Positions 42,001-48,000 of a stretch of 64,000 nt of DNA are shown here, piece after piece. This DNA comes from Coxiella sp. RIFCSPHIGHO2_12_FULL_42_15. Lineage in GTDB: Bacteria > Pseudomonadota > Gammaproteobacteria > Coxiellales > Coxiellaceae. The stretch lies in the NCBI GenBank assembly GCA_001797285.1, contig MGOZ01000018.1, positions 33,965 to 97,964 on the forward strand, in the 5' to 3' direction. Position 1 is the stretch's first letter, and each line of letters opens with the position of its first letter. A program made the position numbers.

Positions 42001-45000
42001 ACTGTGTAAGCAACGCTCGAATGATCCGGAATTATCGCTTGTGGCTATGACTGCACTGGATACCTTCGCCATCTTGCGCAGCCCCCGCTTAAATTTATTG
42101 CACAAAGCCAAAGGATATTTACGCAAGATTGACCTTCCTTTACAACACGATAATGATTCCGATTTTTTAATGATGGTGACCCATGCAATTTGTTTTCCTC
42201 ATTCTTTTAACAAGTTGGAACTCCATGTTGATTTTAATGACGACACGCCATTTGCTAAGAGCCTACATAGTATTATTGTGAAATGGTTTTTACATCTTAA
42301 GCAGGATCTTGGAGAATTTGAAGCGTATTGGCCACTAACGGATTTACAGAAACAACACAATACCGTGCAGTTATTGGTTGATTTAGGGGTGACGCCAGAA
42401 ACAAGCGGCGATATTTTTAAAAAATTGCAAGCGCTGCATGATGAGCAAAGTCAAACACTATTGGCAATAAGTAGTGCATTGCGAGAGCAAATGTCGGCAT
42501 CACGCATAAAAAAATTATCGGTTGGCATGTCGAAATCTTTTTCTTCTGAATTGTCTTTGTTAGATGATGAGATTTGTTCCGAAGTATTGAAAGAAACATT
42601 GGCTAACTTACTGAACCAAAAAGCAGTGACGCCGGAGAGCGCGATCAAAAAATACAGACAGTTCGTGTATAAAGAACTGTTGAAACCGCATGTTAGAAAA
42701 ATGCAAGAAAACATTCAGAACGATCAGGTATTAGAAATTCAAACCGTGTATGCTGCTTTTAATAAAATGCCGCAGCAAGAAATCAAAAACAATTGGATAG
42801 CACGTGAGCACCAGGATAGAAGTGTTGCTCAGCGTCTGGCATTCGGTCGTGAGCAACGTTCTTTATCCAGCAAATTGAAATACAGCAGTTCTTATTTGTT
42901 GGGAGTGGCTGCAATGGCAGCGGGTGTGCTTTTGGTGTTAGGTGGCATTGGGGCTTTACCTTTTTTTGGTGCGGGCAGTGCTTTAATCCTTCCGGGTATT
43001 CTTCTGTTTTCGATTGGTGTGACTTGGTGTGCAGCAACGGGCGTTAAGCATGCTTACAGTGATTACACGACCACTGCACCGGTCACTGACTTTAAACCTC
43101 CTGAAGCGGTATCGAAACGACAAGATTCGAATATAAAACCAAGCCTGAAAATCGCACCGCAACCGACACCGACACGACCACGTTCGTTTTCGCAGGGGGA
43201 GAAGCCAGCACCGATTCAACCAATAAGTGCTTCAAGCAATGGATTGTTTGCTGGAACGAAACGAGAACGAGAAAGATCGCATAGCGAAATAGTTCCCGTT
43301 GTTCAGCCTCCTTCACTTCATTATTAGCCCAGGTATTTCACATCGAACTGCGATGGCTGGTGTGCCGCCAACGGGAAGGTCTTTTGTTTGAAGGGCGTCG
43401 CGACCAGGGAGGGTAAGGAGCGTCGAGCACAGGATGTGCGTCCCTGAAAACAAAAGACCTTCCCGTTGGCGGCAGGGCACTTTGTGTAGCCGTTATCTTC
43501 AAAAAAAACAACATGAGATATCTAGGTTAAGTACTTTTTCATGACGTAAATGCTACTCTCTTCAGGGCCCGCGCCACCCGTGTTTAATAATACTTTAAGG
43601 TTTTTACCGCATAATATAACTGTAATGCAAGGCGACACTCGTTATGCAGGTTGTTCATGAAATATGTAAATTATTCAAAATATGTGTTGTTGGCTTTATT
43701 AGTATTACCACTTTCGACGTTAGCTGTCTATGATATAAACATAGAAAACGATACAGAGCAGACGTTCTATCTGAAACCCATTGTTTCTTCGGACCTGCAG
43801 AGCTGTCGTTATTCAGCCGAAGGGATGAAAACGTTAGCGCCCTATCAGCGTACGCAAATAGGATGCCTTAATTACGATCAAGGGCTAAAGGCTGGAAAGA
43901 AGTATTTTTACAACGTTGAGGTATATAATGATGCGGCTTTAACCACGCGTGTGATGACGTTACAAACTACCGTACAGGCTAATCTCATTGGTTCGACGGT
44001 TGTTAAAGCAACCGTGAAGGATGCCTATTCACAAGCACACGATTTTTTTAGCCGCGTTGCCGATACGAGCAAAACTTATTGGCAACACATCAACGGTGAT
44101 TTACAAGTTTATGCAACACCGGTGAAGTATACGGTTCCAAATCCACACATGAATTTTCAAGACGTGGATGGGATGTTTTTTGTAATTCAAGCACCTGAAA
44201 AAACGTTTCAACGCAGCAAGGATCCAAACCATCTTACGATTTTAAGCTACAATATGCAGCTTTGGCCTTTTTATGGATGGGTTGGTGGAATGATGATGAA
44301 TCGTCCTAATGAGCGCATTAAAGAAATCGCTAATAAAACCCAAAATTATGACGTTGTTGTTGCGGGTGAATTGATGGATCGTGATTTACGAAATCGTTTC
44401 AGTGAATTAATGCGTGCGCCATATCCCTATCAATATGGTCCTATTGATACGAGTGCCACATTGTCGGGTGGAGTGATGATTTACAGTCATTGGCCGATTG
44501 AAAAGCAGTATCAACAATCATTTAATGCGTGTCATGGTATTGACTGCTCTGCGGCGAAAGGCTTTTTAGTGGTGAGTATTAATAAAAATGGTAAGCGATA
44601 TCATATTTTGGGTTCGCACACGCAAGCGGATGAAGGGACGAATCCAGACAGCTTAGCGGCGGATCGTGCGGCGCGCGATGCACAATTGCAAGAATTGGCC
44701 GTGGCACTGCGGCAACAAAATATTCCCGTGGGCGATCCTGTGATTTTGGTGGGTGATTTAAATGTGGATGCAGCATTGTGTCAGCAAAAGAGGGATTGCA
44801 GTGAATTTAATTATTTATTGCAAACGGTTACGGCTCAGTATCAGCCTTATTCAAATATCGCTATTTTGCCTTATACCAGTAATTACACGCTCAATGCGAT
44901 GAACATTGATCCTGTGCTGGGAAGTTACGACTACGTGCTCCCTTTGATGAATTATCAGCACCCTATTTTGTACCAAACACATGTGCGTGTGATGCGAGGG

Positions 45001-48000
45001 GTGGAAAATCCAAAAATGTATACAGGCACACCTTATGGCAATACCGATTTATCGGATCATTTTGCATTGGAAGCAGAATTGCGATATTAATGCCTTTTAG
45101 GTTTTGCATCTGATAGAATCTTTTGACAGTTATATCCTCAAACCCTGAGCGTGTTAGCCCAGAGTTTGGTTTCGCTATTAATTTGGATAACATGATGTTG
45201 AAGGAAGCGGCTATCACGGCCATTGGGACGGCAACCCCCACTTATAAACGTAGTCAACGAGAGATTGTTGCTTTACTTACCCGTGTACTGCAACTCTCTG
45301 CGGCGGAAACTCGATTATTAACTTCTATTTATAAAGCCACTGGTATTGATTATCGTTATAGTGTATTTAGTGACGGCCTTCGGGAAGGCACGGAAAATAT
45401 TTTTTTTCCGCAAGATCCAACCGCTTCGTTGCCAACCACGGCGGCGCGTATGCAAATTTATAAAAATAATGCCTTGCCTTTAGCGTTGCAAGCGATTGCT
45501 CAGTGTTTTTCGGGACAAGCGAATTTTTCAATAACAGAGGTTACGCATTTAATTACGGTGAGTTGCACCGGGATGTATGCACCTGGCATTGATCTTGATA
45601 TCGTGCGTCATTGTGGGTTGTCTTCATCCACTCAGCGTACGTGCATTAATTTTATGGGTTGTTATGGCGCTTTTAATGCGCTCAAAGTCGCTGATAGTAT
45701 TTGTAAAGCGGAACCTAACGCGCGTGTCCTCATTGTTGCCGTGGAGCTTTGCTCGATCCATTATCAAAAAAGTCGGCATAAAGATCATATTATTTCGAAC
45801 GCACTTTTTTCTGATGGTGCTGCGGCCGTTATGGTACAGGCGTCACCGGAAAAAGAGAAATATTTTTCGCTGAATCATTTTTATTGCGATGTTTTGCCGA
45901 AAACACAACATGAAATGGCATGGACCATTGCTGATTCTGGATTCGATATTATTTTAAGTTCTTATGTTCCTGACGTCATAGAGCGGGGTATTGAACATTT
46001 TGCTCACCAGCTTTTCGAAAAAGCGGCTTTGCAACGCGATGAAATTGATTTTTTTGCCATTCACCCCGGAGGGTTAAAAATTTTAGAAGCCTGTGAAAAA
46101 GCATTGTCGATTACCAAAGAGCAAAATTCGTATTCTTATCATGTGCTGCGAAATTATGGCAATATGTCTTCGGTGACCATATTATTCGTTTTACAGGCCT
46201 TATGGCAAGACATTAAAAAATCGGATCATGGAAAAAATATTTTTAGTTGTGCGTTTGGTCCTGGCTTGACGTTAGAGTCTGTTTTATTGGGTGTGGTTGC
46301 ATAGGAGCAATCTATAGCTTTTCAGATAAATATTTTGGTGAAAATGATCGTGCCATTAGAAGCCAACCCTCTCCTAGCCTCTCCCGCAGGCGGGAGAGGG
46401 AAGCTCGACAGTGAGCACCATTGCCGGTAAGACAATTAAAATAGTTTATTTTTACCAAAATATTTATCTGAAACACTATAGAATTTTTTAAAAAGGAGTG
46501 TTTGCGTGAAACTCAAAATAGCCACCGACCAACCCATTTCATGGGATCAAGATAAAATCACGCGCGTGATTAGTGATTTTTGGAATACGGTTTCTGAAGG
46601 GTGGGCGAGTATTTGGGGCCCTCATATCCATCATGGCTATTATGATGAATCTCTGTTAACCCCATTGGAAGCGCAGGAAAAACTCATTACCAAATTAGTT
46701 GAATTACTGCAATTGGATCCTGCTCAACATATTTTGGATGTGGGATGTGGCATGGGTGGCAGCAGTCTTTATCTTGCTAAAAAACACGCGGCCAAAGTGA
46801 TGGGTATTACGCTCAGCGAAAAACAAATTTCCATTGCAAGAGAACGTGCTCGTATGGAAAACGTAAAATCCGTGTTATTTAAATGGGAAGACGCCTTATC
46901 CATGAAAAGTATCACCAGCAATTCAATTGATATTGTTTGGTCGCTGGAAAGTTGCGAACAATTTTTCGATAAAAAATTATTTCTACAGCAAGCTTTTCGT
47001 GTCTTAAAACCCCGTGGGCAACTCATGTTGGCGACATGGTGTTCGAGCGAAGGAAGTTACGAAGGTCAGTATGCGCAGCAATATCAGCGATTATGCCGTG
47101 CGTTTGATTTACCTTACATACCGACTATCGATTACTATAAAGAACTATTAACGAAATGCCATTTTACGGTAGAAAAAGCATTGGATTGGTCGGTTTATGT
47201 GGCAAAGAGTTGGGAGGTGGGTATTTCATTGGTCAGTGCCTATTCCTTTATCCGTTTACTTAAAATAGGTGGATTGCGCGGATTGCGTTTTGCAAAGCAA
47301 ATTAAGTTAATGCGCGACGCGTTTCAACAGCATAGGGTTGAATACGGTGTTTTCATCGCAAGAAAAAGCTGATGGGGTGTCGCCTTGCATTGAGGTAACG
47401 AGTGCCTATTGGAAGATGACGGCCACATGAAGTGCCCTGCCGCCAACGGGAAGGTCTTTTGTTTTCAGGGACGCACATCCTGTGCTCGACGCTTCTTACC
47501 CTCCCTGGTCGCGACGCCCTTCAAACAAAAGACCTTCCCGTTGGCGGCACGCCGACCCTCGTAGTTCGATGCGTCATCCGCTTCGCCGATGGGAATTTGA
47601 TTCCCCACTCTATTCAACATAAAGCCATTACTTATTACCGCGGCCATCATCATCCGGTACATCAGAATGTTTATCGTCAAACGTTCTTGGGTTTTCGGAT
47701 TGTGGTAACACGTCATCGATATCCTCTGGATAAGGCGGTTGAAAGTCGCGAGTACTGCCAGATTGTGGCGGAGGATTTTCGGGATGATGATCACCATGCG
47801 AGTGATGATGTCGGTTTGGATTGTGGCGGCGATGTTGCCCACCACGAGATCCGCGTCTCGTGCGTCCACCGCGAGCAGGTTGTTGGCCACTTCGCGCTGT
47901 TTCTTGTTTGTCGTTGTCTTGCGAATGTTGATGTTGTGGTTGTTGTCTTTTATCAGGACGCGGGTGTCGGTGATGATGACGACCCGATTTTTCTCCCGTT

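What the first reader, a model, noticed from the sequence alone, without database searches (positions are those of the whole stretch)
43328..47572. Inverted MITE-A copies bracket a three-gene accessory module (sphingomyelinase, type III PKS, methyltransferase)
The copy at 43328-43526 and the truncated copy at 47412-47572 are in opposite orientation. They enclose exactly three genes that are not part of the conserved kdsB...rne neighbourhood. This geometry resembles a composite-transposon or MITE-flanked mobile insertion cassette, and it also provides inverted repeats for inversion or deletion. The right copy has lost its outer terminus and is fused to a family-C terminus, so the unit may now be fixed in place.
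Basis: partly seen in the sequence, partly recalled or inferred. Interest (0 to 1): 0.65.

Follow-up and report, generated by a model that had tools for sequence, protein, structure and literature searches.

The report
Chance MITE pair around accessory genes
Two opposite-facing copies of a small, abundant mobile repeat do flank three accessory genes in this uncultured Coxiella-family bacterium, but the evidence points to separate later insertions of the repeat into a gene slot that varies between relatives, not to a mobile gene cassette.

Summary
A full MITE-A copy (43328-43526, YTAR flanks at 43324-43327 and 43527-43530) and a partial copy (47406-47571) are inverted, 163 nt at 93%. They enclose a sphingomyelinase-C-like gene, a type III PKS and a methyltransferase.

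These genes are absent from the kdsB-rne interval in every relative examined. So is orf519, which lies outside the bracket. That interval is 0.35-6.7 kb long across Coxiellaceae and carries different genes in each lineage.

The composite-transposon reading is not supported:
- The right copy lacks both terminal inverted repeats.
- The two copies are no closer to each other than to a copy 15 kb away.
- Only PKS-MT travel together elsewhere, and the sphingomyelinase-like homologs sit alone.
- GC and codon usage of the genes match the rest of the window.
- A different MITE splits PKS from MT.
- With five MITE-A sites in 64 kb, an inverted pair around 1-3 genes is expected in about 0.3-0.4 of such windows.
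- Independent assemblies show one orientation only.

MITE-A is a real, high-copy family that I could not match to any described one. It is about 202 bp long, with 17-nt terminal repeats and a 4-bp YTAR duplication, and it often sits on stop codons. Overall this is ordinary: a new MITE family in a variable gene slot.

The parts
40752..41519 (+). kdsB (CMP-KDO synthetase), the conserved left border of the variable interval
   Evidence: Pfam CTP_transf_3, E=3e-65. Found downstream of rne in 18 of the Coxiellaceae-like loci.
41553..41663 (.). REP-like palindrome cluster: four alternating GGTGGATTA motifs in the kdsB-orf519 spacer
   Evidence: Four matches against 0.38 expected; all four lie here.
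41780..43327 (+). orf519 (called as 515 aa), an orphan gene with predicted C-terminal membrane segments. It is the fourth accessory gene and lies OUTSIDE the MITE bracket.
   Evidence: No Pfam or NCBIfam hit. Only 2 weak hits among 1.84 billion representative proteins. Absent from all relatives' loci. Its TAG stop codon (43325-43327) lies in the TTAG flank of the MITE.
43324..43530 (-). MITE-A, full-length copy (element 43328-43526) with flanking TTAG and TTAA. It is in the opposite orientation to the reference copy 62581-62790.
   Evidence: 212 nt at 92.5% to 62581-62790. TIRs visible in the alignment. Folds as a long hairpin, -96.5 kcal/mol, z=-8.4.
43624..43638 (+). Terminus motif of a third short repeat family (AATGCAAGGCGACAC), just upstream of the EEP start
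   Evidence: Five matches at up to 2 mismatches against 0.2 expected. Alignment.
43657..45090 (+). EEP-superfamily sphingomyelinase-C-like phosphodiesterase, 477 aa. It has an apparent signal peptide (by inspection) and an N-terminal extension of about 190 aa.
   Evidence: Pfam Exo_endo_phos. PDB SmcL 1zwx, E=1.5e-21, plus B. cereus SMase and S. aureus beta-toxin. TIGR03395 scores 106 bits, below its cut-off of 248. Homologs include Coxiellaceae MAG proteins.
45195..46304 (+). Type III polyketide synthase, 369 aa (P0001)
   Evidence: Pfam Chal_sti_synt_N and _C. The GCYG, HPGG and GNMSS motifs are visible in the translation. Best homolog is 66% identical, and Legionella species are 59-60%.
46311..46482 (.). 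MITE-B, an unrelated 172-bp MITE with 35-nt TIRs. It is inserted in the PKS-MT spacer.
   Evidence: Hairpin z=-8.7. In the homologous loci L090 and L091, PKS and MT are only 12-16 nt apart.
46506..47372 (+). Class I SAM-dependent methyltransferase, 288 aa, the conserved partner of the PKS
   Evidence: Pfam Methyltransf_31/11/25 and CMAS. 62% identical to the MT that directly follows the PKS in L090 and L091.
47377..47405 (-). Fragment of the third short repeat family. It replaces the inner terminus of the right MITE-A copy.
   Evidence: Related copies at 51158 and in L120, L104, L122 and L110.
47406..47571 (+). MITE-A core fragment, which lacks both TIRs
   Evidence: 160-166 nt at about 96-97% to 62603/62609-62768, and 93.75% to the left copy.
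47572..47627 (.). Unique spacer between the right MITE-A fragment and the rne stop codon
   Evidence: No repeat match in the window or in the 34 JGI loci.
47628..49787 (-). rne (RNase E), the conserved right border of the variable interval
   Evidence: Pfam RNase_E_G, E=6e-99. Synteny.
62581..62790 (+). Reference full-length MITE-A copy (TTAA flanks, 17-nt TIR)
21800..21906 (-). Internally deleted mini MITE-A copy (termini only, TTAG flanks)
61860..61912 (+). Solo right-end fragment of MITE-A

Best explanation
In this uncultured Coxiellaceae genome, the interval between the convergent core genes kdsB and rne is a variable gene slot. Here it holds four co-oriented accessory genes: the orphan orf519, a probably secreted sphingomyelinase-C-like phosphodiesterase, and a conserved pair made of a type III PKS and a SAM methyltransferase. 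That pair probably makes a methylated phenolic or pyrone lipid. After these genes were in place, small non-autonomous transposable elements that are abundant in this genome inserted independently into the spacers. A full MITE-A landed on a YTAR site that contains the orf519 stop codon. A different MITE (B) landed between PKS and MT. Another MITE-A copy landed between MT and rne and has since lost both ends. The inverted arrangement of the two MITE-A copies is therefore a by-product of high MITE density. It is not the signature of a composite transposon, and the block cannot move by transposition today.

Shown: the anatomy, the family properties of MITE-A, the synteny and the composition. Inferred: the order of events, the chemistry of the PKS-MT product, and the way the slot gains and loses genes. 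A likely route is recombination in the conserved flanks.
For: The slot is variable. The closest relatives (rne 67-75% identical) keep the flanking gene order but carry other genes between rne and kdsB: a macro-domain gene in L004 and L130, and PALP, MFS and DUF6622 genes in L131. Interval lengths run from 352 to 6714 bp across 18 loci, with art-like ABC, MFS, FTR1 or no-Pfam ORFs.

All four genes are native in composition: GC 0.415-0.426 against a window mean of 0.426, with GC3 and codon-usage z-scores within about 1 sd.

PKS and MT are a unit elsewhere, but EEP is not part of it. MITE-B splits that tight pair, so the MITEs arrived after the genes.

MITE-A is a real high-copy MITE. More than 40 copies occur in 34 metagenome loci at 83-98% identity. 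It has 17-nt TIRs and a 4-bp YTAR duplication, which is a perfect match in 13 of 19 full copies by my reading of the table. Truncated copies are common.

The right copy lacks both TIRs. The three long copies in the window show a star-like substitution pattern, with left-right at 93.8% and right-distant at 96.9%.

The chance expectation for such a bracket is 0.29-0.43.

Independent assemblies give orf519-MITE-EEP (L001) and MT-MITE-rne (L084/L087), in the same order as the window.
Against: The flanks of the left copy (TTAG and TTAA) differ at one base. Because the target is restricted to YTAR, these flanks cannot tell an individual insertion from an old composite move.

Native composition does not exclude a move from elsewhere in the same genome.

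No genome closer than about 70% rne identity was available, so the time when the genes arrived, and whether they arrived together, is unresolved.

Three of the four spacers in the block hold MITE-type inserts. This is dense, and it could mean that the elements are linked to how the slot changes, not that they are mere passengers.
Confidence: 0.8

Rival explanations
1. Former composite MITE transposon. Two MITE-A copies and a transposase acting in trans once moved EEP-PKS-MT as a unit into the slot, as MITE-flanked class 1 integrons are thought to move in Acinetobacter. The right copy then decayed and fixed the unit in place.
For: Two copies of one family in inverted orientation enclose the three genes. 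The three genes are absent from this interval in all relatives. The outer TIR of the left copy is intact. Its two flanks are not identical, which a composite move would also produce. MITE-flanked mobilisation is documented (PMC10969869, read).
Against: The right copy lacks both TIRs, so no outer-end pair exists and no outer duplication can be shown. The copies are not each other's closest relatives. orf519, outside the bracket, is equally accessory. The trio is not linked anywhere else, and only PKS-MT are. No second copy or empty site appears in 5 assemblies. The geometry is expected by chance at 0.29-0.43.
Confidence: 0.07
2. Recombination switch. The 163-nt inverted repeats serve as substrates for RecA-dependent inversion of the 3.9-kb segment, or for deletion through other copies. 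This would give population heterogeneity in expression of the three genes.
For: 163 nt at 93% identity is long enough for homologous recombination. All three genes are co-oriented with the upstream genes, so an inversion would uncouple them from read-through transcription.
Against: All look-ups returned the window's arrangement. Of the returned contigs, L001 crosses the left MITE and L084/L087 crosses the right one, from two separate assemblies, and both have the window's arrangement. The copies show no chimeric substitution pattern. 7% divergence strongly lowers recombination, by established knowledge of mismatch-repair barriers.
Confidence: 0.05
3. Co-opted RNA elements. The MITE hairpins are kept because they act in the transcripts as 3'-end stabilisers, processing sites or terminators that separate expression of orf519, EEP-PKS and MT. 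This is compatible with independent insertion.
For: The spacers that hold the MITEs fold as very stable hairpins, with z-scores of -8.4, -5.6 and -8.7. Eight of 19 full MITE-A copies abut the stop codon of an ORF of at least 80 codons, against 10.7% of permissible YTAR sites, p=4e-4. QMITE2 of C. burnetii lies mainly in 3' UTRs, and QMITEs give rise to sRNAs (PMC5896051; PMC10969869).
Against: No expression data are available. No terminator-like T-run follows the hairpins, and the consensus scan found no terminator in them. The stop-codon association may simply reflect the YTAR target plus selection against disruptive insertions. Many copies are truncated at arbitrary points, as expected for decaying selfish DNA.
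Confidence: 0.15

Closest known systems
QMITE1 and QMITE2 of Coxiella burnetii (Wachter et al. 2018, PMC5896051)
   Same: Both are non-autonomous MITEs in a Coxiellaceae genome, present in dozens of copies. Both form stable hairpins, lie mostly intergenic or at gene 3' ends, and have many truncated REP-like derivatives. QMITE2 is similar in size (150-190 bp).
   Different: The duplications differ. QMITE1 has 2-4 bp repeats of variable sequence, and QMITE2 has 7-11 bp repeats of variable sequence. MITE-A has a 4-bp YTAR duplication. No MITE-A match was found in the Coxiella-endosymbiont loci or in the plasmid collection.
MITE-flanked class 1 integrons of Acinetobacter (Gillings 2009 and Domingues 2011, as reviewed in PMC10969869)
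   Same: Two copies of one MITE flank a block of accessory genes.
   Different: In Acinetobacter the flanking MITEs are identical and intact, and the same MITE pair recurs around different integrons in several strains and species. Here the copies are 93.8% identical, one lacks both TIRs, and the block is found at one locus only.
IS5-family insertion sequences and their MITE derivatives (4-bp YTAR target duplication; recalled from ISfinder family descriptions, not tested)
   Same: 4-bp YTAR-type duplication (CTAA, TTAA, TTAG, CTAG) and short TIRs.
   Different: No parent IS with the TIR CCTGGATATTTCA was found in the 358 kb searched. A transposase relationship is therefore only a lead.
Bacterial type III PKS plus methyltransferase lipid operons (srsAB of Streptomyces griseus and bpsAB of Bacillus subtilis, recalled; hidABC-type and planctomycetal clusters, PMC10896814)
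   Same: A type III PKS with the Cys/His/Asn motifs sits directly beside a methyltransferase, and the pair is conserved across distant bacteria.
   Different: The gene order here is PKS then MT, with no oxidoreductase. The product is unknown. In the window the pair is split by a 172-bp MITE.
Chromosomal hotspots of gene gain and loss between conserved core genes (general concept, recalled)
   Same: The flanks are conserved and the genes between them differ by lineage. No integrase or tRNA lies at the site.
   Different: The mechanism was not tested. Sampling of close relatives is sparse.

Membership tests
Composite (MITE- or IS-flanked) transposon | Two copies of the same element flank the carried genes | tested here: met
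   163 nt, 93%, inverted.
Composite (MITE- or IS-flanked) transposon | Both flanking copies keep functional outer terminal inverted repeats | tested here: not met
   the right copy 47406-47571 lacks both the TTAACCTGGATATTTCA end and the TGAAATATCCGGGTTAA end. The left copy is intact.
Composite (MITE- or IS-flanked) transposon | A target-site duplication flanks the whole unit | tested here: inconclusive
   The outer flank on the left is TTAG. The right outer end is missing, so there is no partner to compare. The left copy's own flanks match at 3 of 4 bases, which says little given the YTAR constraint.
Composite (MITE- or IS-flanked) transposon | The same unit is seen at another location or host, or as a presence/absence polymorphism with breakpoints at the element ends | tested here: not met
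   The look-ups for PKS, MT and rne each read 5 contigs, from five samples in all (four ENA assemblies and one Logan run), and every one shows the same context. Elsewhere only PKS-MT are linked. In relatives the missing block also includes orf519, outside the bracket.
Prokaryotic MITE | Small (<500 bp), non-coding, with terminal inverted repeats | tested here: met
   The element is about 202 bp with a 17-nt TIR. The ORF listings of this region (at least 80 and 100 aa) show none confined to the left copy. Two spurious ORFs (209 and 213 aa) run through the right-copy fragment and on into the rne region, and one metagenome annotation calls a 60-aa ORF over that fragment. I treat these as artefacts.
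Prokaryotic MITE | Target-site duplication at individual copies | tested here: met
   A 4-bp YTAR duplication matches perfectly in 13 of 19 full copies by my reading of the table, including two CTAT/CTAT pairs.
Prokaryotic MITE | Many dispersed copies in one genome or lineage | tested here: met
   Five sites in the window. More than 40 copies in 34 metagenome loci.
Prokaryotic MITE | A related autonomous IS that supplies the transposase | tested here: inconclusive
   None was found in the window plus the 34 loci. The one TIR pair at IS-like spacing (L102) is a false positive inside a kinase gene. The whole genome was not available.
QMITE1/QMITE2 (C. burnetii) | Sequence similarity to the QMITE consensus | not testable with these tools
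   No C. burnetii chromosome or QMITE sequence was held.
QMITE1/QMITE2 (C. burnetii) | Direct repeats of 2-4 bp with variable sequence (QMITE1), or 7-11 bp with variable sequence (QMITE2) | tested here: not met
   MITE-A has a 4-bp YTAR duplication, compared with the descriptions read.
Bacterial sphingomyelinase C (TIGR03395 equivalog) | Score above the curated equivalog cut-off | tested here: not met
   106.5 bits against a cut-off of 248.2. The domain-level homology is clear (E=1e-21 to 1e-17 against solved SMases). The substrate is unproven.
Type III polyketide synthase | Chal_sti_synt N and C domains plus the Cys-His-Asn catalytic motifs | tested here: met
   Pfam hits above cut-off. The MGCYGA, IHPGG and YGNMSS motifs were read in the translation; assigning them as catalytic rests on established knowledge of CHS-type enzymes.
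Horizontally acquired genomic island | Composition differs from the host genome | tested here: not met
   GC, GC3 and codon-usage z-scores of all four genes lie within about 1 sd of 52 window ORFs.
Horizontally acquired genomic island | Absent from the syntenic position in relatives | tested here: met

The most novel reading that the evidence does not exclude
The two MITE-A copies are the remains of an active MITE composite that moved a chromosomal lipid-related cassette (sphingomyelinase-like gene, type III PKS, methyltransferase) within or between Coxiellaceae genomes. This would extend MITE-mediated gene mobilisation, so far documented for resistance integrons, to biosynthetic or virulence-type genes in a lineage of intracellular bacteria. 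A milder form of the same idea: MITE-A, whose YTAR target contains TAA or TAG, preferentially lands on stop codons and helps the kdsB-rne slot gain and lose genes.
Probability: 0.07. Interest if true: 0.55.

Novelty: new member of a known kind. Interest (0 to 1): 0.25.

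Why it matters
If the composite reading had held, it would have shown MITEs moving ordinary chromosomal genes in a lineage related to Coxiella and Legionella. It does not hold. What remains is useful but modest:
- A well-defined MITE family that matched nothing I could compare it with: about 202 bp, a YTAR duplication and a bias toward stop codons.
- A clear example of a gene slot between kdsB and rne that varies across the family. Such a slot is the kind of place where lineage-specific host-interaction genes may accumulate.
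- A caution for genome scans: in MITE-rich genomes, inverted repeat pairs around a few genes are expected by chance.

Tried and rejected
- **Rfam and ARAGORN on the window.** No RNA family or tRNA was found, so there is no tRNA-linked integration at this locus.
- **Remnants of the relatives' macro-domain gene.** I searched the window by tblastn and blastn and found none.
- **Remote similarity of orf519.** I compared it with the no-Pfam ORFs that fill the slot in L005, L018 and other loci, and found none.
- **Parent IS.** I looked for one by pairing TIR-like matches at 0.4-3 kb spacing in 358 kb. The three spaced pairs found were set aside: the one at IS-like spacing (L102) falls by chance inside a kinase gene, and the other two (L108, L117) pair ends of separate nearby MITE copies.
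- **MITE-A in other collections.** No match in the 80 relatives' loci or in the plasmid collection.
- **Promoter and terminator scan of 41.4-47.8 kb.** The counts were no higher than in shuffled sequence, so nothing can be assigned to the MITEs.
- **The left copy's flanks as proof of an individual insertion.** I rejected this as decisive because the target is limited to a few YTAR variants.
The outer flank is unique sequence. The third-family terminus lies on the inner side.
- **Closer relatives through the protein database.** The best rne homolog is only 68-75% identical, so no sister genome was available.

Full report
**Observation.** The repeat pair is real. The repeat finder reports arms 43341-43503 and 47409-47571, 163 nt and 93% complementary. 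A self-BLAST gives 160 nt at 93.75%. Each copy carries an internal 33-nt inverted repeat, which explains the short direct matches. The asymmetric centre fixes the orientation, so the two copies are truly inverted.

An alignment of all family members in the window shows the full element: TTAACCTGGATATTTCA ... TGAAATATCCGGGTTAA. The copy at 62581-62790 and the left copy at 43319-43530 are full length, 212 nt at 92.5%. The right copy (47406-47571) is a core fragment that lacks both termini.

On its inner side the right copy joins a fragment of a third short repeat that ends in AATGCAAGGCGACAC. This motif also occurs at 43624 and 51158, with a variant at 61910 and more copies in metagenome loci. 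On its outer side lie 56 nt of unique sequence before the rne stop codon.

**Genes.** Pfam, NCBIfam and PDB searches identify the following.
- kdsB, 40752-41519.
- An orphan ORF, orf519, 41780-43327. It has no family hit and only two weak hits among 1.84 billion representative proteins.
- A 477-aa EEP-superfamily protein whose C-terminal 290 residues match solved sphingomyelinases C (E=1e-21 to 1e-17). It scores below the NCBIfam equivalog cut-off.
- A 369-aa type III PKS. The Cys, His and Asn motifs are visible in the translation.
- A 288-aa class I SAM methyltransferase.
- rne on the opposite strand, 47628-49787.

A second, unrelated MITE (172 bp, 35-nt TIRs) lies at 46311-46482 between PKS and MT.

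**Organism and relatives.** The window's own proteins occur only in a few groundwater-type metagenome assemblies. The nearest RNase E sequences are 67-75% identical and belong to Coxiellaceae MAGs, Candidatus Paracoxiella and Coxiella endosymbionts. The source is therefore a deep-branching uncultured Coxiellaceae lineage.

**Synteny.** I mapped the window's proteins onto the 80 rne-centred loci with tblastn and looked up two further contigs.
- L004 and L130 share the window's gene order on both sides: potABCD, trm112, kdsB on one side and rne, rluC, rpmF, plsX, fabHDG, acpP, fabF on the other. L004 also has cysZ. Between kdsB and rne they have only a macro-domain gene, plus a 100-aa ORF in L130.
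- L131 has PALP, MFS and DUF6622 genes there.
- Across 18 Coxiellaceae-like loci the interval ranges from 352 to 6714 bp. It holds art-like ABC transporter genes, MFS, FTR1, an outer-membrane beta-barrel protein, or ORFs with no Pfam hit.
- None of these loci has orf519, EEP, PKS or MT in the interval.

However, the accessory block contains four genes, and its left edge is the kdsB-orf519 spacer, not the MITE.

**Are the three genes a module?** The PKS homologs with the longest contexts (L090 and L091, 62-63% identical) are followed 12-16 nt downstream by a methyltransferase that is 62% identical to the window's. PKS-MT is therefore a conserved pair that has evolved together. Neither of those loci has an EEP gene. 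EEP homologs form a small family (56 hits) that includes Coxiellaceae MAG proteins. They lie in unrelated neighbourhoods among ankyrin and SidE-like genes. The trio is found together only here.

**Composition.** For 52 ORFs of the window I computed GC, GC3 and a codon-usage log-likelihood. The four accessory genes have GC of 0.415-0.426 against a mean of 0.426. Their GC3 z-scores run from -0.56 to +0.23, and their codon-usage z-scores from -0.84 to +0.99. They cannot be told apart from the core genes.

**The MITE family.** An exact 27-mer from the core found 34 JGI metagenome loci, mostly from one project. These loci hold more than 40 copies at 83-98% identity. Nineteen full-length copies show TIRs and a 4-bp flanking duplication of YTAR type (CTAA, TTAA, TTAG, CTAG, and CTAT twice). 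By my reading of the table, the duplication matches perfectly in 13 of the 19. Many copies are truncated at arbitrary points.

No copy occurs in the 80 relatives' loci or in the plasmid collection. No parent IS was found. The element folds as a long hairpin with z=-8.4.

MITE-A therefore meets the criteria for a MITE. Its duplication differs from those described for QMITE1 and QMITE2 of C. burnetii. Its YTAR duplication recalls the IS5 family, but this is from memory and was not tested.

**Tests of the composite-transposon reading.**
1. The right copy lacks both TIRs, so no transposable unit exists now and no outer duplication can be checked.
2. The left copy's flanks, TTAG and TTAA, match at 3 of 4 bases. 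With a YTAR-restricted target this cannot separate the models, and I treat it as inconclusive.
3. Over the shared 160 nt, left-right identity is 93.8%, left-distant is 95.6% and right-distant is 96.9%. Private substitutions number 6, 4 and 1, which is a star pattern and not a sister pair.
4. MITE-B splits the otherwise tight PKS-MT pair. This shows that MITEs invaded the block after it was assembled.
5. With 5 MITE-A sites among about 53 spacers, an inverted pair enclosing 1-3 genes occurs in 0.43 of simulations, or 0.29 with 4 sites. A second close pair, 61860 and 62581, lies in the same window.
6. Contigs from separate assemblies cross the left MITE (L001: orf519-MITE-EEP-PKS) and the right MITE (L084/L087: MT-MITE-rne). 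Both have the window's arrangement, and no alternative junction appeared.

**Conclusion.** The most economical account has three steps. The kdsB-rne interval is a variable gene slot. In this lineage it holds orf519, a sphingomyelinase-like enzyme and a PKS-MT lipid pair, all long resident or compositionally native. Abundant MITEs then inserted independently into its spacers. The inverted geometry is incidental, and I put confidence in this account at about 0.8.

A past composite mobilisation cannot be excluded, but nothing requires it (about 0.07). A recombination switch has no support (about 0.05). Co-option of the hairpins as RNA 3'-end elements is compatible with the main account and remains untested (about 0.15).

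**Side finding.** Eight of the 19 full MITE-A copies abut the stop codon of an ORF of at least 80 codons, including orf519, whose TAG lies in the TTAG flank. Only 10.7% of permissible YTAR sites do so (binomial p=4e-4). This fits a target that contains TAA or TAG, combined with selection against disruptive insertions. It also parallels the 3'-UTR preference of QMITE2. The control is approximate, because the gene calls are crude and an ORF that reads into the element can be stopped by the element's own first bases.

**Verdict.** The genes are accessory, but the MITE pair does not define a mobile cassette. The result is a new MITE family and a variable gene slot, both of known kinds. Interest is low to moderate.

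Noticed in passing
window 10203-10267 and 19530-19594 (island about 10.2-19.6 kb): 65-nt direct repeats (94% identical) that look like the 3' half of a tRNA bracket a roughly 9.3-kb island. The island carries a tyrosine integrase (10254-11279, minus strand), a cI/S24-like repressor, two no-Pfam ORFs and an AbiEii/AbiEi toxin-antitoxin pair. Neither ARAGORN nor Rfam finds an intact tRNA at either end.
   Followed up: partly
window 46311-46482 and 34108-34210: A second MITE family (172 bp, 35-nt TIRs, hairpin z=-8.7). The full copy splits the PKS-MT pair, whose genes are 12-16 nt apart in homologous loci. The copy at 34108 is truncated.
   Followed up: partly
window 43624-43638, 47377-47405, 51158-51215, about 61910: A third short repeat family that ends in AATGCAAGGCGACAC, found just beyond gene ends (MT, rluC). 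It shares a GGCGGCAGGGC stretch with MITE-A, which suggests mosaic elements. More copies occur in L120, L104, L122 and L110.
   Followed up: partly
window 41553-41663: A REP-like cluster of four alternating GGTGGATTA motifs that form two hairpins in the kdsB-orf519 spacer. These are the only occurrences in the window.
   Followed up: no
19 full MITE-A copies in the window and L099-L129: MITE-A shows a stop-codon association. Eight of 19 copies abut the stop codon of an ORF of at least 80 codons, against 10.7% of permissible YTAR sites (p=4e-4). The control is approximate.
   Followed up: partly
rne-kdsB interval in L004-L035, L130, L131: Across Coxiellaceae the interval between the convergent genes rne and kdsB is 0.35-6.7 kb long and carries different genes in each lineage: macro domain, art-like ABC transporter, MFS, FTR1, PALP, and orphan ORFs. 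This is a family-wide variable slot with no integrase or tRNA.
   Followed up: partly
window 41780-43327: orf519 is essentially an orphan, with only two weak partial hits (E=6e-9 and 2e-8) among 1.84 billion representative proteins. It has hydrophobic segments near residues 385-440 and a Pro/Ser-rich tail.
   Followed up: partly
window 61814-62359, 61860-61912, 62568-62597: A solo MITE-A end (61860-61912) lies inside the 3' end of a 181-aa no-Pfam ORF on the minus strand, so the end of that ORF may derive from the MITE. A solo TIR (62568-62582) directly abuts the full copy at 62581, which suggests repeated insertion at one site.
   Followed up: no
L119 4375-4584: One MITE-A copy has AATT instead of YTAR at both ends and sits within a perfect flanking palindrome (gaggAATT...AATTcctc). 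This is an atypical target or a variant end.
   Followed up: no
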